This document shows, in pieces, positions 1-11,601 of a stretch of DNA of 12,535 nucleotides (its first letter is position 1; each line of letters starts with the position of its first letter). Made by a program: the position numbers and the translations under genes. The DNA is from a virus (taxonomy: Duplodnaviria > Heunggongvirae > Uroviricota > Caudoviricetes). The notes beneath the pieces were generated by a model. That model saw only the letters and a program-made list of their open reading frames with translations, was not told where the DNA came from and made no database searches. The stretch lies in the IMG/VR virus record IMGVR_UViG_2563366903_000018, one strand, 5' to 3'.

Positions 1-567
1 ATGCTTATTGGCTATGTACGCGTGTCAACAAATGACCAGAACACCGATTTGCAACGTAATGCACTGAACTGCGCGGGATGTGAGCAGATTTTTGAGGACA
101 AAATCAGTGGCACTAAGTCCGACAGACCGGGGCTGAAAAAACTACTCAGGACACTATCGGCAGGAGACACGCTGGTTGTCTGGAAGCTGGACAGGTTGGG
201 GCGCAGTATGCGGCATCTTGTTACGCTGATAGAAGAGTTGCGCCAGCGTGGTGTGAATTTCAGAAGCCTGACTGACAGTATTGATACCAGTACCCCAATG
301 GGCCGTTTCTTTTTTCATGTCATGGGTGCCCTGGCTGAAATGGAACGCGAACTGATAGTTGAACGTACCAGGGCAGGGCTGGCTGCAGCTCGTGCCAAAG
401 GCAGAGTAGGTGGACGCCGTCCTAAGTTGACCACCGAACAGTGGGCACAGATTGGGCGTTTACTCGAGGCCGGAGAATCAATACAGCGTATTGCACTGAT
501 TTTTGATGTAGGCGTTTCTACCATTTATAGAAAATTTCCGGCAAATAAGATCAATGAATCCCCCTGA
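1..567 (+). CDS. Serine DNA invertase (Gin/Pin/Hin family site-specific recombinase)
   Basis: 188-aa ORF starting at window position 1. N-terminus MLIGYVRVSTNDQNTDLQ matches the catalytic-serine motif of small serine invertases, with a C-terminal helix-turn-helix region; remembered similarity to phage Mu Gin along most of its length. Sits where P2-like phages carry the region next to tail fibre genes. Confidence 0.9.
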   Translation: MLIGYVRVSTNDQNTDLQRNALNCAGCEQIFEDKISGTKSDRPGLKKLLRTLSAGDTLVVWKLDRLGRSMRHLVTLIEELRQRGVNFRSLTDSIDTSTPMGRFFFHVMGALAEMERELIVERTRAGLAAARAKGRVGGRRPKLTTEQWAQIGRLLEAGESIQRIALIFDVGVSTIYRKFPANKINESP

Positions 568-599: not shown

Positions 600-709
600 A
601 CAAATACCGTTATTTTGTGTGAATAACGACACAACTGCGCTTAGCTGTTTGTCAGGCACAATCACTTCAACATAGGGCGAAGCCTAATCCAATCAGGAGG
701 TTCGCCACT
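600..709 (+). promoter_or_regulatory. Predicted P2-type late promoter upstream of FI, with a TGT-N12-ACA activator site (Ogr class) at 616..633
   Basis: TGTgtgaataacgacACA at 616..633 fits the TGT-N12-ACA dyad recognised by Ogr/Delta-type activators at P2 late promoters. It lies about 55 nt upstream of where a transcription start would be expected (around 675-685). RBS-like caggagg at 693..699 precedes the FI ATG at 710. No clear -35, as is typical for activator-dependent late promoters. Confidence 0.5.
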
Positions 710-1882
710 ATGGCTCAGGATTACCACCACGGGGTGCGCGTTGTTGAAGTCAACGAAGGCACCCGATCTATTACCACGGTGAGCACCGCCATCGTGGGTA
801 TGGTCTGCACGGGCGATGATGCCGATGCAAAAATGTTTCCTCTTAATAAACCCGTGCTGATCACTGATGTGCTGACTGCCAGCGGTAAAGCGGGTGAGTC
901 AGGTACTCTGGCCCGTTCGCTGGATGCCATCGCTGACCAGGCAAAACCCGTGACCATTGTTGTGCGTGTGCCGCAGGGTGAAACGGAAGACGAAACCACG
1001 ACCAATATCATCGGCGCAGTGACTGCTGAAGGTAAAAAAACAGGTATGAAAGCCCTGTTATCTGCCCAGTCACAGCTCGGCGTTAAACCGCGCATTCTCG
1101 GCGTGCCAGGCCACGACACCAAGGCGGTAGCTACTGAGTTGCTGAGCGTGGCGCAAAGCCTGCGTGGATTTGCTTACCTGTCAGCGTATGGCTGCAAGAC
1201 AGTGCAGGAGGCGATCACTTACCGCGAAAACTTCAGCCAGCGCGAAGGGATGCTGATCTGGCCTGACTTTACTGGCTGGGACACGGTGCTGAATGCCGAA
1301 GCAACGGCATATGCCACCGCCCGTGCGCTTGGTCTGCGCGCCAAAATTGACGAGCAGACCGGATGGCACAAAAGCCTGTCCAACGTGGGCGTGAACGGTG
1401 TCACCGGAATTTCTGCAGATGTGTTCTGGGATCTGCAGAACCCGGCAACCGATGCAGGTCTGCTGAACCAGAACGACGTCACCACGCTTGTGCGTAAAGA
1501 CGGTTTCCGCTTCTGGGGTTCCCGTTGCCTGAGTGATGACCCGCTCTTTGCCTTCGAAAACTACACCCGCACGGCGCAGGTGCTGATGGACACGATGGCA
1601 GAAGCACACATGTGGGCGGTGGATAAACCGCTTAACCCGTCGCTGGCCCGCGACATTATCGAAGGTATCCGCGCCAAAATGCGCAGCCTGGTCAGTCAGG
1701 GCTATCTCATTGGTGGTGATTGCTGGCTGGATGAGTCGGTGAACGACAAAGACACGCTGAAAGCCGGAAAACTCACCATCGACTACGACTACACGCCAGT
1801 GCCGCCACTTGAAAACCTGATGCTGCGTCAGCGCATCACCGATCAGTACCTGGTGAATTTCGCCAGCCAGGTCAGCGCGTAA
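710..1882 (+). CDS. FI: Contractile tail sheath protein (P2 gpFI homolog)
   Basis: 390-aa ORF with a good RBS; length and sequence character match P2 gpFI (about 396 aa); position immediately upstream of the tail tube gene. Confidence 0.9.
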
Positions 1883-1891
1883 GGGGACAAC

Positions 1892-2407
1892 ATGGCTTTA
1901 CCACGCAAATTAAAACACCTGAACCTGTTTAACGACGGGAACAACTGGCAGGGGATCGTTGAGTCGCTGACGCTGCCGAAATTTACCCGCAAATATGAGA
2001 AGTATCGCGGCGGCGGAATGCCGGGTGCGGTGGATGTGGATCTGGGGCTTGATGACAGTGCGCTGGACACAGAATTTTCCATTGGTGGTACTGAATTGCT
2101 GCTGTTTAAACAGATGGGTAAAACCACGGTGGATGGCATCCAGCTGCGCTTTACCGGCTCTATTCAGCGTGACGATACCGGGGAAGTGCAGGCCGTGGAG
2201 CTTGTCGTGCGTGGACGTCACAAAGAAGTGGATTCCGGCGAGTGGAAGACGGGCGAAAGCAACACCACCAAAGTGACCAGTACCAACAGCTACGCGAAGC
2301 TGACCATCAATGGTGAGGTGCTCTATGAAGTGGACCTTATCAACATGGTGGAAATTGTGGACGGTGTGGACCTGATGGAAGCGCACCGCAACGCCCTCGG
2401 CCTCTGA
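1892..2407 (+). CDS. FII: Tail tube protein (P2 gpFII homolog)
   Basis: 171-aa ORF directly after FI, starting MALPRKLKHLNLFNDG; size and synteny match P2 gpFII (about 172 aa). Confidence 0.9.
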   Translation: MALPRKLKHLNLFNDGNNWQGIVESLTLPKFTRKYEKYRGGGMPGAVDVDLGLDDSALDTEFSIGGTELLLFKQMGKTTVDGIQLRFTGSIQRDDTGEVQAVELVVRGRHKEVDSGEWKTGESNTTKVTSTNSYAKLTINGEVLYEVDLINMVEIVDGVDLMEAHRNALGL

Positions 2408-2418
2408 TATATCTGAAC

Positions 2419-2436
2419 GGCGCGGGATACCGCGCC
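2419..2436 (+). other. GC-rich stem-loop between FII and E (GGCGCGG-GATA-CCGCGCC)
   Basis: Perfect 7-bp GC inverted repeat with a 4-nt loop, read directly from the sequence. No U-tract follows, so it is not a canonical intrinsic terminator; it could be a partial terminator or RNA stability element. Confidence 0.3.
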
Positions 2437-2461
2437 AGAACCCAATTGACAGGACAGCAAA

Positions 2462-2764
2462 ATGAGCGATAAGCAGACTGAAAAGACCATTCAACTGGAT
2501 ACCCCCATCAAGCGCGGTAAAACAGAAATCACCGAAATTGTGCTGCGTAAACCGCAGTCCGGTGCGCTGCGCGGTACACGCCTGCAGGCCATTATGGATA
2601 TGGATGTAAACGCGATGATGACCGTGATCCCCCGCATCTCCAGTCCGGCACTGACTGCACAGGAAATTGCAGAGATGGACCCGGCAGATCTCACTGCCAT
2701 GTCGGTTGAGGTTGTCACTTTTTTGTTGAAGAAGTCGGTGCTTGCCGGTTTACCGACAGCCTGA
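2462..2764 (+). CDS. E: Tail assembly chaperone gpE (zero-frame product)
   Basis: 100-aa ORF between the tail tube and tape measure genes; contains the slippery heptamer near its 3' end, as in P2 gene E. Confidence 0.8.
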   Translation: MSDKQTEKTIQLDTPIKRGKTEITEIVLRKPQSGALRGTRLQAIMDMDVNAMMTVIPRISSPALTAQEIAEMDPADLTAMSVEVVTFLLKKSVLAGLPTA

Positions 2765-2898
2765 CGGTTGACGATCTGGTGGCAGATATCGCCACCATTT
2801 TTCACTGGCCGCCATCCGTTACTGACGTTATGCCGCTGACCGAAGTGCTGGAATGGCGGTATAAAGCGATTCAGAGAAGCGGGGCCAACGATGAGTGA
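2462..2898 (+). CDS. E+E': gpE+E' frameshift fusion protein (E frame 2462..2725, then -1 frame re-reading 2725 through stop at 2896..2898)
   Basis: Manual translation of the -1 frame from 2725 gives VEEVGACRFTDSLTVDDLVADIATIFHWPPSVTDVMPLTEVLEWRYKAIQRSGANDE, ending at TGA 2896..2898, which overlaps the T start codon at 2891. This is the conserved G/GT-like chaperone frameshift arrangement known for P2 E/E'. Confidence 0.65.
2719..2725 (+). promoter_or_regulatory. Programmed -1 ribosomal frameshift slippery site T_TTT_TTG (E to E')
   Basis: Heptamer TTTTTTG lies in the zero frame of E as T TTT TTG (codons Phe-Leu at 2720..2725). The -1 frame is open from here to a stop at 2896..2898. Confidence 0.7.
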
Positions 2899-3204
2899 TA
2901 ACAACCTGCGTCTGCAGGTCATTCTTAATGCGGTTGACAAGCTCACCCGCCCATTTCGATCTGCGCAGGCCAGTTCAAGAGAACTGGCTGCTGCTGTCAA
3001 AAAATCCCGCGATGCAATAAAGCAGCTTGATCAGGCCGGGAGCAGTCTGGACAGCTTCCGAAAGCTGCAGGCAGAAAATCAGAAATTAGGCGACAGGCTG
3101 AACTATGCCCGCCAGCGTGCAAATTTGCTCAGTCAGGAACTGGGAGCGATGGGGCCGCCTTCGCAACGTCAGGTTGTTGCTCTGGGCCGTCAACGGCTGG
3201 CTGT
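2891..3204 (+). CDS. T: Tail tape measure protein gpT, exon 1 (5' part; predicted 5' splice site after 3204)
   Basis: ORF starts MSDNNLRLQVILNAVDKL directly after E'. The reading frame runs into a stop at 3224..3226 only 7 codons after a GTGTG motif at 3205. The tape measure frame resumes about 1.8 kb downstream in the same frame. Confidence 0.55.
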
Positions 3205-3715
3205 GTGTGTCACGAAGGAGAACTGATAGCGGCAATATGAAAATTGCAGCATAAGTTATCCATGCTCTGAGGTGGGTGGAGGTGGGCCCTCCGGTCAGGG
3301 TTTGCAGGAACACTGACCAAACGACCCGGTGCTGCTTCATTCTAAGGAATGTAGTGGTGAGCGACTCGGGAAAAGGCAGAGATCTACTGTCACGTGGGGT
3401 TCGGGAAGCTGAACGAAAGTAAACTGTCCGATGAAGCATCGAAATCTTAGATGATGTCAAAATGGGGCCGTACAGCCGTCCTCTGATAAGCGCAGAAGAC
3501 ACCTGCTTACTGACTGCGCGGCATCCGGTGTTAAGGCAGCAGGATCCCGGGCCAGACCATCTCAGGGAACGTGAGAACCTGTTTCCGGCACGTATCGGGA
3601 AACAGGGGCGGACCCATTCGTAGTAGTGATGAAAGATCTGTAATGGGTCTGGAGCGAAGGGATGGGGATCACATTCATTGCAAAAGACACAACCCATAAG
3701 GGGATGATGTAACTG

Positions 3716-4948
3716 ATGCAACGAAAATCATTCGAAATACCAAAAGCACTGGTCTGGGCATCATATCTGGATGTGCGTCGCAACAAGGGAGCCCCCGGAT
3801 GCGACGGACAGACTTTGAAAATGTTCGACCAGCAACGTGATGGCAATCTATACAAGATCTGGAACCGGCTATGTTCGGGAACATGGTTTCCGCCACCTGT
3901 GCTGGAAAAACGGATCCCGAAGCCGAATGGCAAGGAGCGCATTCTGGGGATCCCAACAGTATCCGATCGAATTGCTCAGGGAGCGATAAAACTTTTTATG
4001 GAAGAAAAGCTTGACCCGATTTTCCATGCTGATTCTTATGGTTACCGACCAGGCAAATCAGCTCATGACGCTCTGAAACAATGTGCCATCCGGTGCTGGC
4101 GTTATAGCTGGATACTGGAAGTGGACATCAGTGCGTTTTTCGACCATGTGAGACATGATCTGGTGCTCAAAGCACTGGAACACCACGGGATGCCTAAATG
4201 GGTCATCCTGTACTGTCGACGCTGGATGGAAGCACCAATGCAGAGTTGTGAAAATGGAGAATTAATAACCCGAACACGAGGCACTCCGCAGGGCGGGGTC
4301 ATTAGTCCGCTACTTGCTAACTTGTTCCTTCACTATGCATTTGATTTGTGGATGGAAAGAGAATATCGGGGGGTACCGTTTGAGAGGTACGCTGATGATA
4401 TTGTAGTACATTGTTCACGAATGAGTGATGCAACAAGGCTGAAGAACAGGTTATCGGAGCGCTTCTCGGAAGTCGGGCTGGTCCTGAATGCAGGGAAAAC
4501 GAATATCGCCTACATTGACACGTTTAAAAGGAGAAACGTCGCAACGAGTTTCACCTTTCTCGGATATGACTTCAAAGTGCGTACGCTGAAGAATTTCAAA
4601 GGCGAACTGTACCGAAAATGCATGCCGGGTGCGTCAAATGCAGCAATGCGCAAAATAACAGAAACAATCAAGAAGTGGCGTATACATCGCTCAACAGCTG
4701 AGAGTTTGCTGGATTTTGCGAGGCGCTACAATGCGATAGTGAGAGGCTGGATCGAGTACTACGGAAAGTTCTGGTCCAGAAATTTCAACTATCGACTGTG
4801 GAGTGCAATGCAGTCACGTCTGCTCAAGTGGATGCAGTCTAAATACAGACTTTCGAACCGGAGGGCTCAGCGAAAGCTGACGCTGGTAAGGAAGGAGTAT
4901 CCGAAGCTATTTGTCCACTGGTATTTACTACGTGCATCGAATGAGTGA
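3716..4948 (+). CDS. Group II intron-encoded reverse transcriptase/maturase (En-minus type)
   Basis: 410-aa ORF with RT motifs: IPKPNGKERILGIPTVSDR (RT1/2), YGYRPGKSAHDAL, LEVDISAFFDHVRHD (RT3), GTPQGGVISPLLANLFLH (RT4), YADDIVV (RT5 catalytic), FLGYDF (RT7), and maturase domain X RGWIEYYG. No Cys/His-rich HNH endonuclease region after domain X. RBS-like aagggga about 11 nt upstream of the ATG. Confidence 0.9.
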   Translation: MQRKSFEIPKALVWASYLDVRRNKGAPGCDGQTLKMFDQQRDGNLYKIWNRLCSGTWFPPPVLEKRIPKPNGKERILGIPTVSDRIAQGAIKLFMEEKLDPIFHADSYGYRPGKSAHDALKQCAIRCWRYSWILEVDISAFFDHVRHDLVLKALEHHGMPKWVILYCRRWMEAPMQSCENGELITRTRGTPQGGVISPLLANLFLHYAFDLWMEREYRGVPFERYADDIVVHCSRMSDATRLKNRLSERFSEVGLVLNAGKTNIAYIDTFKRRNVATSFTFLGYDFKVRTLKNFKGELYRKCMPGASNAAMRKITETIKKWRIHRSTAESLLDFARRYNAIVRGWIEYYGKFWSRNFNYRLWSAMQSRLLKWMQSKYRLSNRRAQRKLTLVRKEYPKLFVHWYLLRASNE

Positions 4949-4952
4949 TCAA

Positions 4953-5028
4953 GAGCCGTATGACGCGAGAGTGTCACGTACGGTTCCGTGAGCAGCCGGG
5001 GAGTGAAATTCTCTCCGGCTGACTCGAC
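4953..5028 (+). ncRNA. Group II intron ribozyme domains V and VI (catalytic hairpin plus branch-point hairpin)
   Basis: Domain V GAGCCGUAUGACGCGAGAGUGUCACGUACGGUUC (4953..4986): 10-bp lower stem, AGC catalytic triad at 4954..4956, 2-nt CA bulge on the 3' strand, 4-bp upper stem, GAGA (GNRA) tetraloop. Domain VI: 11-bp stem 4993..5003 with 5011..5021, bulged A at 5022, short basal helix, intron ending ...GAC at 5028. Confidence 0.75.
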
Positions 5029-7792
5029 TCAGCGCCTGGAAGAACGCCAGAAAAAGCTGCAGCAGCAGACGGCGCTTGTGCGTGCTGAACTGTACCGGGC
5101 GGGAATTTCTGCGAAAGACGATGCGGGAGCAACTGCCCGTTTAGCCCGTGAAACATCACGTTATAACCAGGAACTTTCGAAACAGGAGGCGCGGCTGAAG
5201 CGACTGGGGGAAGCTCAGCGCAGGATGAATGCAGCGCGTGCCAGTTATGCCCGTTCGCTGGAGGTGCGTGATCGTATTGCAGGTGCCGGAGCCACCACCA
5301 CGGCTGCAGGGCTGGCAATGGGTGCGCCAGTGATGGCGGCAGTAAAAAGCTATACCAGCATGGAAGATGCCATGAAAGGTGTGGCAAAGCAGGTCAATGG
5401 TCTGCGTGACGATAATGGCAACCGCACTGCACGTTTTTATGAAATGCAGGATGCCATCAAGGCTGCCAGCGAACAGTTGCCGATGGAAAACGGTGCGGTG
5501 GACTTCGCTGCACTGGTTGAAGGTGGTGCGCGCATGAACGTCGCAAACCCTGACGACAGCTGGGAAGATCAGAAACGTGACCTGCTGGCCTTCGCCAGTA
5601 CGGCAGCAAAGGCGGCAACAGCCTTTGAGCTGCCAGCGGATGAACTGTCAGAAAGTCTGGGGAAAATCGCCCAGCTCTACAAAATCCCCACCCGCAATAT
5701 TGAACAGCTCGGTGATGCGCTGAACTATCTGGATGATAACGCCATGTCGAAAGGGGCAGACATCATTGATGTGATGCAACGTCTGGGCGGTGTGGCTGAC
5801 CGTCTGGATTATCGTAAAGCGGCGGCGCTGGGTTCCACCTTCCTGACACTGGGCGCTGCGCCAGAGGTTGCAGCCAGTGCAGCAAACGCGATGGTGCGTG
5901 AATTGTCCATTGCCACCATGCAAAGCAAGAGTTTCTTTGAAGGGATGAATCTGCTGAAACTCAATCCTGAAGTGATTGAAAAGCAGATGACGAAGGATGC
6001 GATGGGAACCATCCAGCGCGTGCTGGAGAAGGTAAACGCGCTGCCGCAGGACAAGCGCCTGTCTGCCATGACTATGTTGTTTGGTAAAGAGTTTGGCGAT
6101 GACGCGGCGAAACTGGCAAACAACCTGCCGGAACTGCAGCGTCAGTTAAAACTGACAGCGGGCAATGATGCGCTTGGCTCCATGCAGAAAGAATCCGACA
6201 TTAACAAGGATTCACTTTCTGCGCAGTGGTTGCTGGTCAAAACCGGAGCGCAGAACACCTTCAGCAGCCTGGGCGAAACGCTGCGCCAGCCGCTGATGGA
6301 TATTCTGTACACGGTGAAAAGCGTCACGGGGGCGTTGCGTCGCTGGGTGGAAGCTAACCCGGAACTGACAGGCACACTGATGAAAGCATCGGCTGTTGTG
6401 GCTGCGGTTACCGTCGGCCTCGGCACCTTAGCGGTGGCGCTGGCTGCAGTGCTGGGGCCGCTGGCAGTGATCCGTCTGGGATTCTCTGTGTTGGGTATCA
6501 AAACGTTATCTTCCGTTACGGCAGCAGTAACTCGAACCAGCAGCGCGTTGTCCTGGCTGGCTGGCGCACCACTGGCACTGCTGCGACGCGGGCTTGCTTC
6601 ATCGGGCAACGCCGCAGGTTTACTTACTGCGCCGTTGTCGTCTTTGCGCCGCACGGCATCACTGACGGGAAATGTCCTGAAAACTGTAGCAGGTGCGCCG
6701 GTTGCACTTTTGCGGTCTGGATTATCCGGTTTACGTGCTGTTGCTGTGATGTTTATGAATCCTCTGGCGGTACTGCGCGGTGGACTGGCCGCCGCAGGCA
6801 CGGTGCTGCGAGTACTGGCATCTGGTCCACTGGCGATGCTGCGCGTTGCCCTGTATGCCATATCTGGTCTGTTAGGTGCTCTGCTCAGTCCGATAGGTCT
6901 TGTGGTTACTGCACTGGCGGGCGTGGCGCTGGTTGTCTGGAAATACTGGCAACCCATCACCGCATTTCTCGGTGGCGTGGTGGAAGGATTCAAAGCGGCG
7001 GCAGGTCCCATCAGTGCAGCGTTCGAACCGCTTAAGCCCGTGTTCCAGTGGATTGGCGACAAAGTGCAGGCGCTGTGGGGCTGGTTTACTGATCTGCTGA
7101 CGCCCGTTAAGTCGACCTCTGCCGAACTGCAGAGCGCAGCGGCAATGGGGCGGCGATTCGGGGAGGCACTGGCGGAAGGGCTGAATATGGTCATGCATCC
7201 GCTGGACTCCCTGAAATCCGGAGTTTCCTGGTTGCTGGAGAAGCTCGGCATTGTCAGTAAAGAGGCCGCAAAGGCAAAACTGCCGGAAAGCGTGACGCGT
7301 CAGCAACCTGCGACGGTGAATGCAGACGGTAAAGTGATGATGCCATCGGGTGGTTTTCCATCATGGGGATATGGCTTTGCGGGGATGTATGACAGCGGCG
7401 GGTATATCCCGCGCGGGCAGTTTGGCATCGTCGGTGAAAACGGGCCGGAAATTGTTAACGGCCCGGCAAATGTGACCAGCCGGAGAAATACAGCTGCACT
7501 GGCTGCCGTTGTTGCCGGAATGATGGGCGTTGCTGCCGCGCCAGCAGAGCTTCCACCGTTGCACCCCTTGGCACTTCCCGCGAAAGGTGGAGAAGCAATT
7601 GTGAGTCGCGCAGCCACTGTGCCGCTCGTTCAACGGATTGAGGCACCGACGCAGATCATCATTCAGACGCAGCCAGGACAAAGTGCGCAGGATATTGCGC
7701 GGGAGGTGGCACGCCAACTTGATGAACGTGAACGCAGGCTGAAGGCAAAAGCCAGGAGTAACTACAGCGATCAGGGGGGATACGACGCATGA
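5029..7792 (+). CDS. T: Tail tape measure protein gpT, exon 2 (predicted 3' splice site before 5029; stop at 7790..7792)
   Basis: 934-codon open frame (the ORF track starts it at an internal GTG at 4988, inside the intron). Ala/Gly/Leu-rich with a repeat-bearing central region and a C-terminal region typical of tape measure proteins. Same frame as exon 1; predicted junction codon gt|t gives ...ALGRQRLAV-QRLEERQKKLQQQ.... Stop overlaps the U start (ATGA). Confidence 0.6.
6566..6940 (+). repeat. Tandem degenerate repeats of about 20-22 aa within the tape measure protein (PLAxLRxGL-type units)
   Basis: The translation shows consecutive units: APLALLRRGLASSGNAAGLLT / APLSSLRRTASLTGNVLKTVAG / APVALLRSGLSGLRAVAVMFMN / PLAVLRGGLAAAGTVLRVLASG / PLAMLRVALYAISGLLGALLS / PIGLVVTALAGVALVV. 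Confidence 0.6.
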
Positions 7793-8274
7793 TGATGGTG
7801 CTGGGATTGTACGTGTTTATGCTGCGCACCGTTCCGTATCAGGAACTGCAGTATCAACGCAGCTGGCGACATGCGGCAAACAGTCGGGTAAACCGACGTC
7901 CGTCCACGCAGTTTCTGGGACCGGAAAACGACATGCTGACGCTTTCCGGTGTTCTTATGCCGGAGATAACAGGCGGCAGGCTGTCGTTGCTGGCACTGGA
8001 GCAGATGGCAGAACAGGGGAAAGCATGGCCCCTGATTGAAGGCAGTGGCACGATTTACGGTATGTATGTGATTGAGGGACTGAATCAGACTAAAACGGAG
8101 TTTTTCCGCGATGGTATGCCGCGCCGGATTGAGTTTACCCTGTCGCTCAAACGGGTGGATGAATCCCTGTCCGATATGTTCGGTGATCTCAGTGCGCAGC
8201 TGAATAATTTGCAGGATACGGCAACGTCTGCCTTAAGCGATATCAGTAAAACGGTGGGAGGGCTGCTGTCGTGA
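7789..8274 (+). CDS. U: Tail protein gpU homolog
   Basis: 161-aa ORF whose start overlaps the T stop (ATGA); size and position match P2 gpU (about 159 aa). Confidence 0.85.
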   Translation: MMMVLGLYVFMLRTVPYQELQYQRSWRHAANSRVNRRPSTQFLGPENDMLTLSGVLMPEITGGRLSLLALEQMAEQGKAWPLIEGSGTIYGMYVIEGLNQTKTEFFRDGMPRRIEFTLSLKRVDESLSDMFGDLSAQLNNLQDTATSALSDISKTVGGLLS

Positions 8275-9371
8275 ATTTCAGCTCTGAACTGCTTAACAAA
8301 GGCAACAAAACTCCGGCATTCAGCATCAGTATTGAAGGCAGGGATATCACTACTGTGCTGGACAACCGCCTGATGGGGCTTACGCTGACGGATAACCGGG
8401 GCTTTGAAGCGGACCAGCTTGATCTGGAGCTGGACGACGCCGATGGAAAAATCGTGCTGCCGCGCCGTGGTGCGGTCATTACGCTGGCGCTGGGCTGGAA
8501 GGGGCAGCCGCTTTTCCCGAAAGGGGCATTCACGGTGGACGAGATTGAACACACTGGCGCACCGGACCGCCTGACTATCCGGGCGCGAAGTGCTGATTTT
8601 CGTGAAACACTGAATACCCGCCGTGAAAAGTCGTGGCACAAGACCACCGTTGGGGAAGTGGTGAAGGAAATAGCTGCGCGGCACAAACTGAAGATGGCAT
8701 TGGGTAAAGACCTGTCAGATAAACCCGTGGAACATATAGATCAGACCAATGAGAGTGACGGCAGTTTTCTGATGCGGCTGGCGCGCCAGTACGGTGCTAT
8801 TGCGTCGGTGAAAAATGGCAATCTGTTATTCATCCGACAGGGGCAGGGTAAAAGCGCCAGTGGTAAACCACTACCGGTTATCACTATCACACGTAAGGAC
8901 GGCGACAGTCACCGCTTTACCCTGGCAGATCGCGGAGCTTACACGGGCGTAATTGCCAGCTGGTTGCATACCCGCGAACCCGCGAAGAAAGAAAGCACCG
9001 CGGTGAAGCGTAAGCGCAGGACTAAGAAGCAGAAGAAAGAGCCGGAAACGAAGCAGGGCGATTATCTGGTGGGTACGGATGAAAACGTGCTGGTACTTAA
9101 TCGCACCTATGCTAATCGGAGTAACGCCGAACGGGCAGCGAAAATGCAGTGGGAACGCCTGCAACGCGGCGTTGCGTCATTCTCGCTACAACTGGCGGAA
9201 GGGCGGGCAGATCTCTACACGGAAATGCCAGTGAAAGTCAGTGGCTTTAAACAGCCGATAGATGATGCGGAATGGACCATTACGACTCTGACGCATACCG
9301 TCAGCCCCGATAACGGTTTTACAACCAGTCTGGAGCTTGAAGTGAGGATTGATGATTTCGAAATGGAATGA
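8271..9371 (+). CDS. D: Tail protein gpD homolog (late control gene D product)
   Basis: 366-aa ORF with a GTG start overlapping the U stop (GTGA); position before ogr and length match P2 gpD (about 387 aa). Confidence 0.85.
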   Translation: MNFSSELLNKGNKTPAFSISIEGRDITTVLDNRLMGLTLTDNRGFEADQLDLELDDADGKIVLPRRGAVITLALGWKGQPLFPKGAFTVDEIEHTGAPDRLTIRARSADFRETLNTRREKSWHKTTVGEVVKEIAARHKLKMALGKDLSDKPVEHIDQTNESDGSFLMRLARQYGAIASVKNGNLLFIRQGQGKSASGKPLPVITITRKDGDSHRFTLADRGAYTGVIASWLHTREPAKKESTAVKRKRRTKKQKKEPETKQGDYLVGTDENVLVLNRTYANRSNAERAAKMQWERLQRGVASFSLQLAEGRADLYTEMPVKVSGFKQPIDDAEWTITTLTHTVSPDNGFTTSLELEVRIDDFEME

Positions 9372-9397
9372 TTCTTCGCAATGGAGAACTTTTAAGT

Positions 9398-9427
9398 TTG
9401 CAAAATGGAATAATGCGGTATCATTAT
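9398..9427 (+). promoter_or_regulatory. Candidate sigma70 promoter for ogr (-35 TTGCAA 9398..9403, 18-bp spacer, -10 CATTAT 9422..9427)
   Basis: Hexamers read directly from the sequence upstream of ogr; RBS-like ggggaga precedes the ATG at 9462. Confidence 0.35.
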
Positions 9428-9461
9428 TGTGAATTTAGCAAAAATGGGGAGAACTCGAAAA

Positions 9462-9680
9462 ATGATGATTTGCCCACTGTGTGGAAGTGCCGCCCATACT
9501 CGCAGCAGTTTTCAGGTATCTTCATTGACCAAAGAGCGTTACAACCAGTGCCAGAACATTAACTGCAGCCATACTTTTGTTACCCATGAAACTTTTGTTC
9601 GTTCGATTGCAACGCCAAAAGAGTCAAATCCGGTTCAGCCACATCCAATGAAATCAGGACAGGTGGCGCTCTCTCTTTGA
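9462..9680 (+). CDS. ogr: Late gene transcriptional activator Ogr (zinc-finger protein)
   Basis: The ORF track starts it at 9429, but the ATG at 9462 has the better RBS and gives a 72-aa protein MMICPLCGSAAHTRSS...YNQCQNINCSHTF with the CxxC...CxxxxC zinc-binding pattern and the length of P2 Ogr. It is the last phage gene before host DNA, as expected for the right end of a P2 prophage. Confidence 0.85.
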   Translation: MMICPLCGSAAHTRSSFQVSSLTKERYNQCQNINCSHTFVTHETFVRSIATPKESNPVQPHPMKSGQVALSL

Positions 9681-9750
9681 CGCTGCCGCCATTTTGTCGC
9701 CATCGTTAAAAAACAGTGTTTCTAACATCATGATTTTAAACAGTTTAAAT
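9681..9750. other. Predicted prophage right end / host junction (attR expected in this interval)
   Basis: In P2 the attachment site lies immediately downstream of ogr. Here ogr is followed within about 240 bp by a chromosomal gene (ybjL) and its terminator. The exact core cannot be identified without the other prophage end or an unoccupied site. Confidence 0.3.
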
Positions 9751-9793
9751 TTCAGGCAACAAAAAACCCATCAACCTTGAACCGAAATGGCGG
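9751..9793 (-). terminator. Rho-independent terminator for ybjL (minus strand)
   Basis: Perfect 10-bp inverted repeat CCCATCAACC (9757..9766) / GGTTGATGGG (9784..9793) with a 17-nt loop. On the minus strand it is followed by a U-tract (plus-strand AAAAAA at 9751..9756). It lies about 120-165 nt downstream of the ybjL stop. Confidence 0.6.
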
Positions 9794-9915
9794 GGTTGAT
9801 GGGCTCCACAAAATGGGGACATCAAAGAAAAGCAGTGGCACTAATTAAGACTGATGCCCTGCGGAAAAGTTCTGCGGTTGTGCAAAAAAATTTCATTTTC
9901 AGGGCAACTTCAGTT

Positions 9916-11601
9916 TTATCCTAATCCTGGCCATACCATGACGATGATTGTCCCTGCCAGCGTCAGCAGGACGTTGGCGATTGCATAGGTGCCCGCATAG
10001 CCCAGCGCCGGGATGTTACTGCGAGCTGTATCACTGATGATCTCCATTGCCGGCGCGCAGGTGCGTGCGCCCATCATTGCGCCGAACAACAGTGCGCGGT
10101 TCATTCGCAATACATAAGCACCGAACAAGAAACAGATAACCACTGGCACAAGACTGACAATCAATCCGGCAATCAACATCTGACCGCCAATCGCGCCCAG
10201 GCCGTTATTAATACCGCTACCGGCGCTCAGACCAACGCCTGCCATAAACACCATTAAGCCGAACTCTTTCACCATGCTTAATGCACCCTGCGGAATGTAA
10301 CCGAAGGTCGGGTGGTTAGCGCGCATAAATCCCAGCATAATTCCGGCGAATAACAACCCGGCAGCGTTCCCCATGCCGAAACTGAATGTGCTGAACTGGA
10401 AGGTGATCATCCCGATCATCAGCCCAATAACAAAGAAGGCGCAGAATGCCAGCAAGTCAGTGACCTGGCTGTGAATCGAGATAAAGCCGATGCGATCGGC
10501 GATGGTTTTTACGCGACGGGCATCGCCGCTGACTTGTAAAACGTCACCTTTGTTAAGCACGACGTTGTCATCTATCGGCATCTCAATCTGGCTACGAATG
10601 ACGCGGTTAAGGAAGCAACCGTGATCGGTCAACTTCAGTTGTGCGAGACGTTTGCCCACGGCGTTATGGTTTTTAACGACCACTTCTTCAGTGACGATAC
10701 GCATGTCGAGAAGGTCACGATCGAAAACTTCTTTGCCGTTACGGAAGCTGGGATCGAGTCGTGCGTGGGCGTCGGGATAGCCTACCAACGCTATTTCATC
10801 TCCCATTTGTAGCACAGCATCACCGTCTGGATTCGCCAGAATCCCGTTACGTCGAATACGTTCAATGTAGCAGCCAGTTTGTCGATAAATACCCAGTTCA
10901 CGCAGATTTTTGCCGTCGGTCCAGGCCACCAGCTCCGGGCCGACGCGGTAGGCGCGGATCACCGGTAAATAAACCTTACGGTTGGCATCAGTGTCCAGGC
11001 CACGTTCGCGGGCGATTTGCTGGGCGCTGGTCTGTAAGTCCTGATGCTGCAATTTCGGCAAGTAACGCGCACCAACAATCAAACTCACCAGACCGATTAA
11101 ATAGGTTAAGGCATACCCGAGGCTCAGATTATCCAGTGCCAGTGAGAGCTGCCTGCTTTCCATGCCGGAATGACGCAGTGTATCGCCAGCACCGACCAGA
11201 ACCGGTGTCGACGTCATAGAGCCAGCTAACATACCGGCCGTCAGGCCAATATCCCAGCCAAACAGCTTACCTAACCCTAAGGCGATCACCAGCGCACTGC
11301 CAACCATCACCAGTGCTAACATTAGGTAATTTTTCCCATCGCGAAAAAAAATGGAAAAAAAGTTCGGTCCGGCTTCGACTCCGACGCAGAAAATAAACAG
11401 CATAAAGCCAAGATTAAGCGCGTCGGTGTTAATGCTGAAATGTTGTTGGCCTAATAACAGCGATACGACTAAAACGCCAATGGAATTACCCAGTTGGATC
11501 GAACCAAGTCGTAATTTCCCGAGACATAGCCCAAGCGCGAGGACCACAAATAATAACAGAATGTAATTCCCATTTAACAATTCGGCGACGTTTATATTCA
11601 C
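9916..11601 (-). CDS. ybjL: Putative transport protein YbjL (AAE-family membrane transporter with internal TrkA-C-like domains)
   Basis: 561-aa ORF starting [20 protein letters not shown]; hydrophobic N- and C-terminal halves flank a soluble central region; matches E. coli YbjL in length and remembered sequence. Confidence 0.9.

What the first reader, a model, noticed from the sequence alone, without database searches (positions are those of the whole stretch)
7789..8274. Overlapping stop/start codons linking T-U (ATGA) and U-D (GTGA)
Seen in sequence: the T stop TGA (7790..7792) overlaps the U start ATG (7789..7791), and the U stop TGA (8272..8274) overlaps the D start GTG (8271..8273). Established knowledge: such overlaps usually indicate translational coupling. 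Inference: U and D synthesis would depend on ribosomes completing exon 2 of T, and therefore indirectly on intron splicing.
Basis: partly seen in the sequence, partly recalled or inferred. Interest (0 to 1): 0.2.

Follow-up and report, generated by a model that had tools for sequence, protein, structure and literature searches.

The report
Ordinary overlapping stop/start codons, P2-like tail operon
The two four-base stop/start overlaps are real, but they are the commonest gene junction in bacteria, here in a P2-like prophage tail operon, and strong ribosome-binding sites upstream of both genes make partial rather than strict translational coupling most likely.

Summary
Observation confirmed. 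T ends TGA 7790-7792 over ATG 7789-7791 of U. U ends TGA 8272-8274 over GTG 8271-8273 of D.

The genes are real: U is Pfam GpU, D is the GPD baseplate hub, and PGAP annotates identical overlaps in an intronless allele. The setting is a P2-type late tail operon (FI-FII-E-E'-T-U-D-ogr) beside rybB/ybjL. T is split by a group II intron (3205-5028).

Interpretation partly supported. -4 overlaps are the class in which termination-reinitiation coupling was shown for 4 of 5 native E. coli pairs. The U/D overlap (-4 or -1) is kept in 14 of 16 U-protein lineages that have D adjacent.

Against strict dependence:
- U and D carry the strongest Shine-Dalgarno matches of the operon after FI (-10.2 and -10.7 kcal/mol, top ~1% of positions).
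- No structure more stable than shuffled sequence hides either start.
- The T/U overlap is lineage-specific; P2 itself has a +14 spacer.
- P2 late-operon polarity is described as Rho-dependent.

The intron is 1824/1824 identical to an IS66-borne plasmid copy and is absent from all 629 complete E. coli genomes holding this operon. The overlaps therefore predate it.

Verdict: ordinary, already known, low interest.

The parts
616..633 (+). P2-type late-promoter dyad (TGT-N12-ACA: TGTGTGAATAACGACACA) upstream of FI; probable start region of the single operon transcript
   Evidence: Pattern match and sequence. This is a consensus match only: 5 matches in the window against 3.6 expected.
710..2407 (+). 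Tail sheath FI (710-1882) and tail tube FII (1892-2407)
   Evidence: Pfam Phage_sheath_1 and Phage_tube. PGAP annotation of the intronless allele.
2462..2898 (+). Tail assembly chaperone E (2462-2764) and GpE-family E' segment (2779-2898). E' overlaps the T start by 8 nt.
   Evidence: Pfam Phage_TAC_7. E' coordinates transferred from L001 3279-3398 through an ungapped 99.97% alignment.
2891..3204 (+). Tape measure gene T, exon 1 (314 nt). In unspliced RNA this frame runs 19 nt into the intron and then meets stop codon 3224-3226.
   Evidence: Alignment to the intronless allele and translation.
3205..5028 (+). Group II intron (5' GTGTG ... 3' GAC) with RT/maturase ORF 3716-4948 and candidate EBS1 ACAGCC at 3472-3477
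   Evidence: Rfam group-II-D1D4-2 (93 bits) and Intron_gpII (57 bits), the latter ending exactly at 5028. Pfam RVT_1 and GIIM. 1824/1824 identity to the copy in IS66 tnpC of pSCU-106-1. EBS1 candidate.
5029..7792 (+). Tape measure gene T, exon 2, ending with TGA 7790-7792. Exons 1 and 2 joined give 1025 aa, identical to the intronless allele.
   Evidence: 0 differences in 1026 codons. Pfam PhageMin_Tail.
7772..7780 (+). Shine-Dalgarno-like G-run (CAGGGGGGA) inside the 3' end of T, with G-run end 9 nt upstream of ATG 7789
   Evidence: Anti-SD duplex -10.2 kcal/mol; only 1.3% of positions 700-9700 are as strong. The Klebsiella relatives keep an equivalent run.
7789..7792 (+). ATGA: T stop overlapping U start. 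It is part of ATGATGATG (7789-7797), which offers three in-frame AUGs.
7789..8274 (+). Gene U (161 aa), P2 GpU family. Residues 8-127 match the C-terminal part of pyocin R2 'ripcord' PA0626.
   Evidence: Pfam PF06995, E = 2.8e-44. PDB 6u5b chain h, E = 1.3e-6.
8257..8263 (+). Shine-Dalgarno GGGAGGG inside the 3' end of U, 7 nt upstream of GTG 8271
   Evidence: Anti-SD duplex -10.7 kcal/mol; only 0.6% of positions are as strong. The motif recurs in relatives.
8271..8274 (+). GTGA: U stop overlapping D start
8271..9371 (+). Gene D (366 aa), baseplate hub (GPD family)
   Evidence: Pfam PF05954. PDB 6u5h chain C, pyocin R2 protein, E = 3.4e-53.
9462..9680 (+). ogr/Delta-type late activator gene, 90 nt downstream of D
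   Evidence: Coordinates transferred from the PGAP annotation of L001 8138-8356. SD -8.6 kcal/mol.

Best explanation
The two 4-nt overlaps are standard compact junctions of a P2-type late tail operon (FI-FII-E-E'-T-U-D), probably read from one Ogr-dependent transcript.

Proposed mechanism (inferred): a ribosome terminating at the UGA of T, or of U, sits directly on the AUG, or GUG, of the next gene. A strong Shine-Dalgarno element lies 7-9 nt upstream, inside the gene being finished. That element retains the ribosome or its 30S subunit, so part of U and D synthesis arises by termination-reinitiation. The same SD elements are exposed enough to recruit free ribosomes. Coupling is therefore partial and proportional, not obligatory. 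The effect would be to tie the output of three proteins that probably assemble together at the tail/baseplate core (tape measure, GpU, hub GpD).

The group II intron in T is a recent, unrelated insertion. Splicing is needed to make T itself. Failure to splice would also leave about 2.8 kb of exon 2 without ribosomes in the T frame, which would lower U and D mainly through Rho-dependent polarity or mRNA decay and only secondarily through lost reinitiation.

Shown here: the overlaps, the gene identities, SD strength, absence of unusual structure, conservation patterns, intron boundaries and intron recency. Inferred: every statement about ribosome behaviour, Rho and assembly partners.
For: - Overlaps and start-codon assignments. 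Identical PGAP gene models in the intronless allele.
- Junction spacings in the operon are +9, +54, -8, -4, -4 and +90. No sigma-70-like promoter was found on the + strand between 2400 and 9396, and the count of terminator-like sites matches shuffled sequence. A P2-type late-promoter dyad lies upstream of FI.
- SD strength: U -10.2 and D -10.7 kcal/mol against a background mean of -2.9. These are top 1.3% and 0.6% of positions, and both pass the -8.4 kcal/mol 'strong SD' threshold of PMC6728339.
- Start-region opening energy: U at the 16th percentile and D at the 45th percentile of the transcript. 100-nt folds give z = +0.37 and -0.01.
- Conservation, from 262 loci in 19 U-protein clusters of about 80% identity. 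U/D is -4 or -1 in 14 of the 16 clusters that have D adjacent; the other two have +5 and +86. T/U ranges from -4 to +17, with one P2-cluster locus at +28. T/U is -4 only in the window's cluster and in 11 of 38 loci of the Burkholderia KS5-like cluster.
- Literature: 4 of 5 native E. coli -4 pairs were coupled, and the SD was usually important (PMC6728339). Short overlaps are enriched 4.5-fold for heteromeric complex subunits in E. coli (PMC10666635).
- Structure matches: U to pyocin R2 ripcord PA0626 (6 chains in 6u5b) and D to a pyocin R2 protein in entry 6u5h (3 chains).
- Rho-dependent polarity in P2 morphogenetic operons, relieved by P4 Psu: PMC11718236.
- Intron: exact boundaries, spliced T identical to the intronless T, and 1824/1824 identity to an IS66-borne copy. 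It is absent from all 629 complete genomes that hold at least 80% of the window.
Against: - No expression data exist for this locus, so the balance between reinitiation and de novo initiation is unknown.
- One of the five E. coli -4 pairs tested (bioBF) showed no coupling at all, so overlap does not guarantee coupling.
- In the minimum-free-energy fold of the U/D junction, the D SD pairs partly with upstream U coding sequence. That could make D more dependent on U translation than the average opening energy suggests.
- The C/G composition of exon 2 is G-rich. Only 12% of 78-nt windows have C/G above 1, so Rho loading there is not obviously favoured.
- Several in-frame internal starts with moderate SDs exist in exon 2. 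They could deliver ribosomes to the T/U junction even from unspliced RNA.
Confidence: 0.55

Rival explanations
1. Strict translational coupling. U is made only by ribosomes that have completed T exon 2, and D only by ribosomes that have completed U. Intron splicing would then gate all three proteins through translation alone.
For: -4 overlaps with an intragenic SD are the configuration in which 4 of 5 native E. coli pairs were coupled; strict dependence was the finding for 9 of 9 H. volcanii pairs (PMC6728339). The U/D overlap is conserved in 14 of 16 lineages. The D SD is partly paired in the minimum-free-energy fold.
Against: - Strong SDs at optimal spacing and start regions no more structured than shuffles.
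- The T/U overlap is evolutionarily labile. P2 uses a +14 spacer with a -13.4 kcal/mol SD, and +13 and -4 variants coexist within one Burkholderia cluster.
- P2 polarity is attributed to Rho.
- Internal in-frame starts exist in exon 2.
Confidence: 0.15
2. No functional coupling. The overlaps are by-products of genome compaction and of the NTGA sequence bias at stops. U and D are initiated essentially de novo from their own SDs.
For: - SDs of U and D are the strongest in the operon after FI.
- The start regions are accessible.
- T/U spacing varies freely among relatives.
- NTGA overlaps arise by chance, as at the unannotated ORF at 9368.
- bioBF is a precedent for an uncoupled -4 pair.
Against: U/D is kept at -4 or -1 in 14 of 16 divergent lineages although the junction sequence differs between them. 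That suggests selection on the arrangement itself. Four of five tested E. coli -4 pairs were coupled.
Confidence: 0.27
3. The G-run at the end of T is a -1 frameshift site (G GGG GGA, 7774-7780 in the T frame). It would move some ribosomes into the U frame, which is open from 7762, and so produce a T-U fusion protein in addition to the separate proteins.
For: The heptamer fits the X XXY YYZ pattern in the T frame. The -1 frame is the U frame, with no stop between 7762 and the U stop (sequence; in-frame stop at 7759).
Against: - The Klebsiella relatives with the same -4 overlap have CAA GGG GGG TAC, which is not a slippery heptamer in frame.
- No stimulatory structure is present.
- The G-run is fully explained as an SD.
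- No T-U fusion is annotated in any of the records examined.
Confidence: 0.03

Closest known systems
[quoted passage not shown] 2019, PMC6728339; 2023, PMC10666635)
   Same: Co-directional genes with ATGA/GTGA overlap and an SD inside the 3' end of the upstream gene. The products probably belong to one multiprotein assembly.
   Different: Coupling has not been measured here. Both SDs are stronger than -8.4 kcal/mol and are not sequestered, so de novo initiation may contribute more than in the tested pairs.
Bacteriophage P2 FETUD late tail operon (Peduovirus P2, NC_070906)
   Same: Same gene order, same Pfam families, ogr downstream of D, a U/D stop-start overlap (TAATG, -1) and a U protein beginning with consecutive Met codons.
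   Different: P2 has a 14-nt T/U spacer with a canonical AAGGAGGTGA SD instead of an overlap. U is only 47.8% identical. P2 has no invertase upstream of FI in this arrangement (from my knowledge, not tested here), and the P2 T segment examined (last ~1.5 kb) shows no intron.
Klebsiella and Escherichia P2-like phages of the Kapieceevirus/Dagavirus type (ST258-KPC3phi16.2, ST13-OXA48phi12.1, Escherichia phage 500465-1)
   Same: Identical -4/-4 junction geometry and near-identical SD motifs. U is 79-91% identical and the operon DNA is 95-99% identical.
   Different: These records lack the group II intron in T; they cover 76-79% of window 600-9700 in two pieces.
Ll.LtrB group II intron in the ltrB relaxase gene of pRS01 (PMC6003770)
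   Same: A mobile group II intron with an RT/maturase sits inside a protein-coding gene of a mobile element, so host-gene expression requires splicing.
   Different: The host gene here is a phage tape measure gene followed by overlapping downstream genes. The intron-encoded protein here has RT and maturase matches only. No splicing or expression data exist for this copy.

Membership tests
Translationally coupled overlapping gene pair (termination-reinitiation class) | Two co-directional genes whose stop and start codons overlap by 4 or 1 nt | tested here: met
   ATGA at 7789-7792 and GTGA at 8271-8274. The start assignments are supported by homology.
Translationally coupled overlapping gene pair (termination-reinitiation class) | Both genes lie on one mRNA, with no promoter or terminator between them | tested here: inconclusive
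   No sigma-70-like promoter was found on the + strand between 2400 and 9396, and terminator-like sites are at the chance level. This is a consensus scan only; there are no transcript data.
Translationally coupled overlapping gene pair (termination-reinitiation class) | SD motif within the 3' end of the upstream gene at functional spacing | tested here: met
   -10.2 kcal/mol for U (9 nt spacing) and -10.7 kcal/mol for D (7 nt spacing), both in the top ~1% of positions.
Translationally coupled overlapping gene pair (termination-reinitiation class) | Translation of the downstream gene falls when upstream translation is stopped early, at constant mRNA level | not testable with these tools
   This needs reporter fusions or ribosome profiling.
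RNA-unfolding type of coupling (downstream RBS masked by structure that the upstream ribosome melts) | Stable local structure sequestering the SD or start of the downstream gene | tested here: not met
   Opening energy of the -18..+7 segment is at the 16th percentile for U and the 45th for D. 100-nt folds give z = +0.37 and -0.01 against shuffles.
P2-type (Peduoviridae) late tail operon F-E-T-U-D | Gene order sheath, tube, E/E' chaperone, tape measure, GpU, GpD, followed by ogr | tested here: met
   Pfam assignments, PGAP annotation of the intronless allele and synteny with P2 and 13 other phages.
P2-type (Peduoviridae) late tail operon F-E-T-U-D | Ogr-dependent late promoter with a TGT-N12-ACA dyad upstream of FI | tested here: inconclusive
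   The dyad TGTGTGAATAACGACACA lies at 616-633, 77 nt before the FI ATG. The pattern occurs 5 times in the window against 3.6 expected, so this is a consensus match only.
Bacterial mobile group II intron | Ribozyme domains, 5' GUGYG and 3' AY ends, and an intron-encoded RT/maturase | tested here: met
   Rfam RF01999 (93.4 bits) and RF00029 (57.1 bits), the latter ending at 5028. Ends are GTGTG...GAC. Pfam RVT_1 and GIIM.
Bacterial mobile group II intron | EBS1-IBS1 pairing with the 5' exon, and precise restoration of the host ORF on splicing | tested here: met
   A unique ACAGCC at 3472-3477 is complementary to the last 6 nt of exon 1, GGCTGT. The in-silico spliced T is identical to the intronless T. 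Actual splicing was not tested.

The most novel reading that the evidence does not exclude
A recently inserted group II intron in the tape measure gene may make three interacting tail/baseplate-core proteins (T directly; U and D through reinitiation and/or Rho polarity) depend on splicing efficiency. This allele would then be a natural case in which a bacterial intron throttles a whole translationally chained operon segment, and with it phage tail production. A matched intronless allele exists in hundreds of strains for comparison.
Probability: 0.3. Interest if true: 0.35.

Novelty: already known. Interest (0 to 1): 0.12.

Why it matters
It matters little by itself. ATGA/GTGA junctions are the commonest gene spacing in prokaryotes and are already annotated identically in hundreds of copies of this prophage.

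Two modest points have value.
1. The comparative result: the U/D junction is almost always overlapped across P2-like phages, whereas the T/U junction drifts between -4 and +17. This suggests selection for linked synthesis of GpU and hub GpD in particular.
2. The intron-bearing allele and the intronless allele form a natural pair. They could be used to separate translational coupling from Rho polarity downstream of a bacterial group II intron.

Tried and rejected
1. Looked for a masking RNA structure at either junction, using an RNAplfold-type opening energy and 100-nt folds against shuffles. Nothing beyond chance was found, so the RNA-unfolding model has no support.
2. Looked for internal promoters or terminators that would uncouple U and D transcriptionally, and for extra P2-type late-promoter dyads. 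None was convincing. The dyad at 5745 is at the chance level.
3. The first IMG/VR scan with the window's U returned only 99-100% identical loci, which say nothing about conservation. I rescanned with P2, KS5 and Mannheimia U proteins and fetched 14 phage records.
4. Tried to read the Christie and Calendar P2 review (PMC4836473) for T/U/D polarity data; it is not held. The full-text search for P2 polarity gave only indirect statements.
5. Searched for the exon 1-intron junction in species-representative genomes and found 0 hits. IMG/VR gave 1 contig. The source of the window was not identified further.
6. Considered a -1 frameshift T-U fusion at G GGG GGA. I rate it very unlikely because the heptamer is not conserved in frame in the Klebsiella relatives.
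7. A C/G-ratio scan for Rho-loading sites in exon 2 gave weak, inconclusive support for polarity.
Full report
**What is there.** The window is the right-hand end of a P2-like prophage next to host genes. On the + strand it holds:
- a DNA invertase (1-567);
- tail sheath FI (710-1882) and tail tube FII (1892-2407);
- chaperone E (2462-2764) with the E' segment (2779-2898);
- tape measure T, then U (7789-8274), D (8271-9371) and ogr (9462-9680).

On the - strand follow the sRNA gene rybB (9758-9836, Rfam 105 bits) and ybjL (9916-11601).

T is split by a group II intron. Alignment with an intronless E. coli allele (L001, NZ_CM141449) places exon 1 at 2891-3204, the intron at 3205-5028 (GTGTG...GAC) and exon 2 at 5029-7792. 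Joining the exons gives a 1025-aa protein identical to the intronless T. The 934-aa 'GTG 4988..7792' ORF in the mechanical list is an artefact that starts inside intron domains V-VI.

**The observation.** It is correct to the base. 7789-7792 reads ATGA and 8271-8274 reads GTGA.

The start codons are well founded.
- For U, the in-frame upstream stop is at 7759 and 7789 is the first start. The sequence is ATGATGATG, so AUGs at -4, -1 and +2 relative to the T stop are all available.
- U proteins of nearly all relatives begin with two or three Met codons.
- For D, 8271 is the first start after the in-frame stop at 8247, and the next in-frame start is codon 29.
- Similarity of D to the solved pyocin R2 hub begins at residue 15, so 8271 is the only start that keeps the conserved N-terminus.
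- PGAP annotates the same two 4-nt overlaps in the intronless allele.

**Is it more than chance?** The NTGA motif alone is not. Three of the four possible bases before a TGA stop create a potential start. The window holds a counter-example: an unannotated ORF at 9368 starts ATGA over the D stop, with no SD (+0.1 kcal/mol).

The junctions are meaningful only because the downstream frames are real genes. As a gene arrangement they are the most ordinary one known.
- -4 is by far the commonest spacing among 2.66 million co-directional prokaryotic gene pairs, followed by -1 and -8 (PMC10666635).
- About 15% of co-directional pairs overlap in most prokaryotic groups (PMC6728339).
- Within this operon the spacings are +9, +54, -8, -4, -4 and +90.

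**Evidence bearing on coupling.**

In favour:
- -4 pairs with an intragenic SD are the class for which termination-reinitiation was shown in 4 of 5 native E. coli pairs, with the SD usually contributing.
- Short overlaps are enriched 4.5-fold for subunits of heteromeric complexes in E. coli.
- U matches the C-terminal part of pyocin R2 'ripcord' PA0626 (6u5b, six chains). D matches a pyocin R2 protein in 6u5h (three chains), which I take to be the hub. T, U and D are therefore probably neighbours at the tail/baseplate core. That they assemble together is my inference.

Against an obligatory dependence:
- The SDs of U (CAGGGGGGA, -10.2 kcal/mol) and D (GGGAGGG, -10.7 kcal/mol) lie in the top 1.3% and 0.6% of all positions. 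With FI they are the strongest in the operon.
- The -18..+7 segment is easier to open than average for U (16th percentile) and about average for D (45th percentile).
- 100-nt folds around each junction are no more stable than shuffles (z = +0.37 and -0.01).

From sequence it is plausible.

**Comparative evidence.** I fetched 14 annotated phage records spanning Peduoviridae genera, plus Foxunavirus FoX3. I added 247 IMG/VR loci recovered with four different U queries. Junctions were scored with a script, and U proteins were clustered at about 80% identity into 19 lineages.
- U/D junction: -4 or -1 in 14 of the 16 lineages where D is adjacent. The other two have +5 and +86. The surrounding sequence differs between lineages.
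- T/U junction: labile. It is -4 in the window's lineage, which includes the Klebsiella Kapieceevirus/Dagavirus phages, and in 11 of 38 loci of the Burkholderia KS5-like cluster, whose other members have +12 or +13.
- FoX3 has T/U at -1. For P88 the script's -4 came from picking a later ATG; the record's own annotation gives +6.
- Elsewhere T/U is +2 to +17, and P2 itself has +14 with a -13.4 kcal/mol SD.

Any selection for an overlap therefore applies to U/D, not to T/U.

**The link to splicing.** The intron looks competent.
- Rfam matches cover the D1-D4 region and domains V-VI, the latter ending exactly at the 3' splice site.
- The RT/maturase ORF is intact.
- A unique ACAGCC at 3472-3477 is complementary to the last six bases of exon 1.

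It is also very recent.
- It is 1824/1824 identical to a copy inside an IS66 tnpC on plasmid pSCU-106-1. The two insertion sites share CTGGCTGT upstream and TC downstream.
- None of the 629 complete E. coli genomes holding at least 80% of the window has the intron at this site; best coverage is 86%, in two pieces.
- The junction was found in one IMG/VR contig and in no species-representative genome.

The overlaps therefore long predate the intron.

In an unspliced transcript the exon 1 frame stops at 3224-3226. Exon 2, 2.8 kb long, would then lack ribosomes in the T frame, apart from possible internal starts at 5225, 5534 and 6347. Polarity in P2 morphogenetic operons is described as Rho-dependent and relieved by P4 Psu (PMC11718236). 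Ll.LtrB is reported to inhibit expression of its host gene (PMC6003770).

The route is probably transcript-level polarity or decay at least as much as lost reinitiation. Exon 2 is G-rich, so even Rho loading there is uncertain.

**Verdict.** The feature is an ordinary, already annotated property of P2-like tail operons. The only mildly interesting by-products are the contrast between conserved U/D and labile T/U junctions, and the existence of matched intron-plus and intronless alleles for an experimental test.

Noticed in passing
window 3205-5028: The group II intron in tape measure gene T is 1824/1824 identical to a copy inside an IS66 tnpC on E. coli plasmid pSCU-106-1. The two target sites share CTGGCTGT|...|TC. 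None of the 629 complete E. coli genomes carrying this operon has the intron here, and one IMG/VR contig (L264) has the junction. It looks like a very recent ectopic retrohoming event into a phage structural gene.
   Followed up: partly
window 9758-9836 (- strand): A full-length RybB sRNA gene (Rfam 105 bits) lies 78 nt beyond ogr, with its 3' end facing the prophage. The prophage appears to be integrated at or next to the 3' end of rybB, between rybB and the rest of the chromosome. The att site was not mapped.
   Followed up: no
window 4988-7792: The 934-aa ORF listed as starting with GTG 4988 begins inside intron domains V-VI and has no SD (-2.7 kcal/mol). It is an artefact of reading exon 2 backwards into the intron, not a gene start.
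   Followed up: yes
window 9368-9562: A 64-aa ORF starts with ATGA overlapping the D stop but has no SD (+0.1 kcal/mol) and is not annotated in the intronless allele. It serves as an internal control showing that NTGA overlaps arise by chance.
   Followed up: partly
window 7774-7780: G GGG GGA in the T frame fits the X XXY YYZ -1 slippery pattern, and the -1 frame is the U frame, open from 7762. A T-U fusion is formally possible. The heptamer is not in frame in the Klebsiella relatives, and the run is better explained as the U SD.
   Followed up: partly
window 1-567; L001 1-473: A DNA invertase (Resolvase plus HTH_7) sits directly upstream of FI. In the intronless allele, oppositely oriented tail-fibre and fibre-assembly gene fragments lie upstream of it, which suggests an invertible tail-fibre (host-range) segment.
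   Followed up: no
window 616-633: A near-perfect dyad, TGTGTGAATAACGACACA (TGT-N12-ACA), lies 77 nt upstream of the FI start codon. It fits the Ogr-dependent late-promoter element of P2-like phages.
   Followed up: partly
L090 920-1498; L087 2025-2612; L091 1134-1481: Gene content around U varies in relatives. A Rha-family regulator gene lies between T and U in Aeromonas phage LPM4. An invertase gene follows U instead of D in phage P88. A small ORF29, not a tape measure gene, precedes U in the Mannheimia phage record.
   Followed up: no
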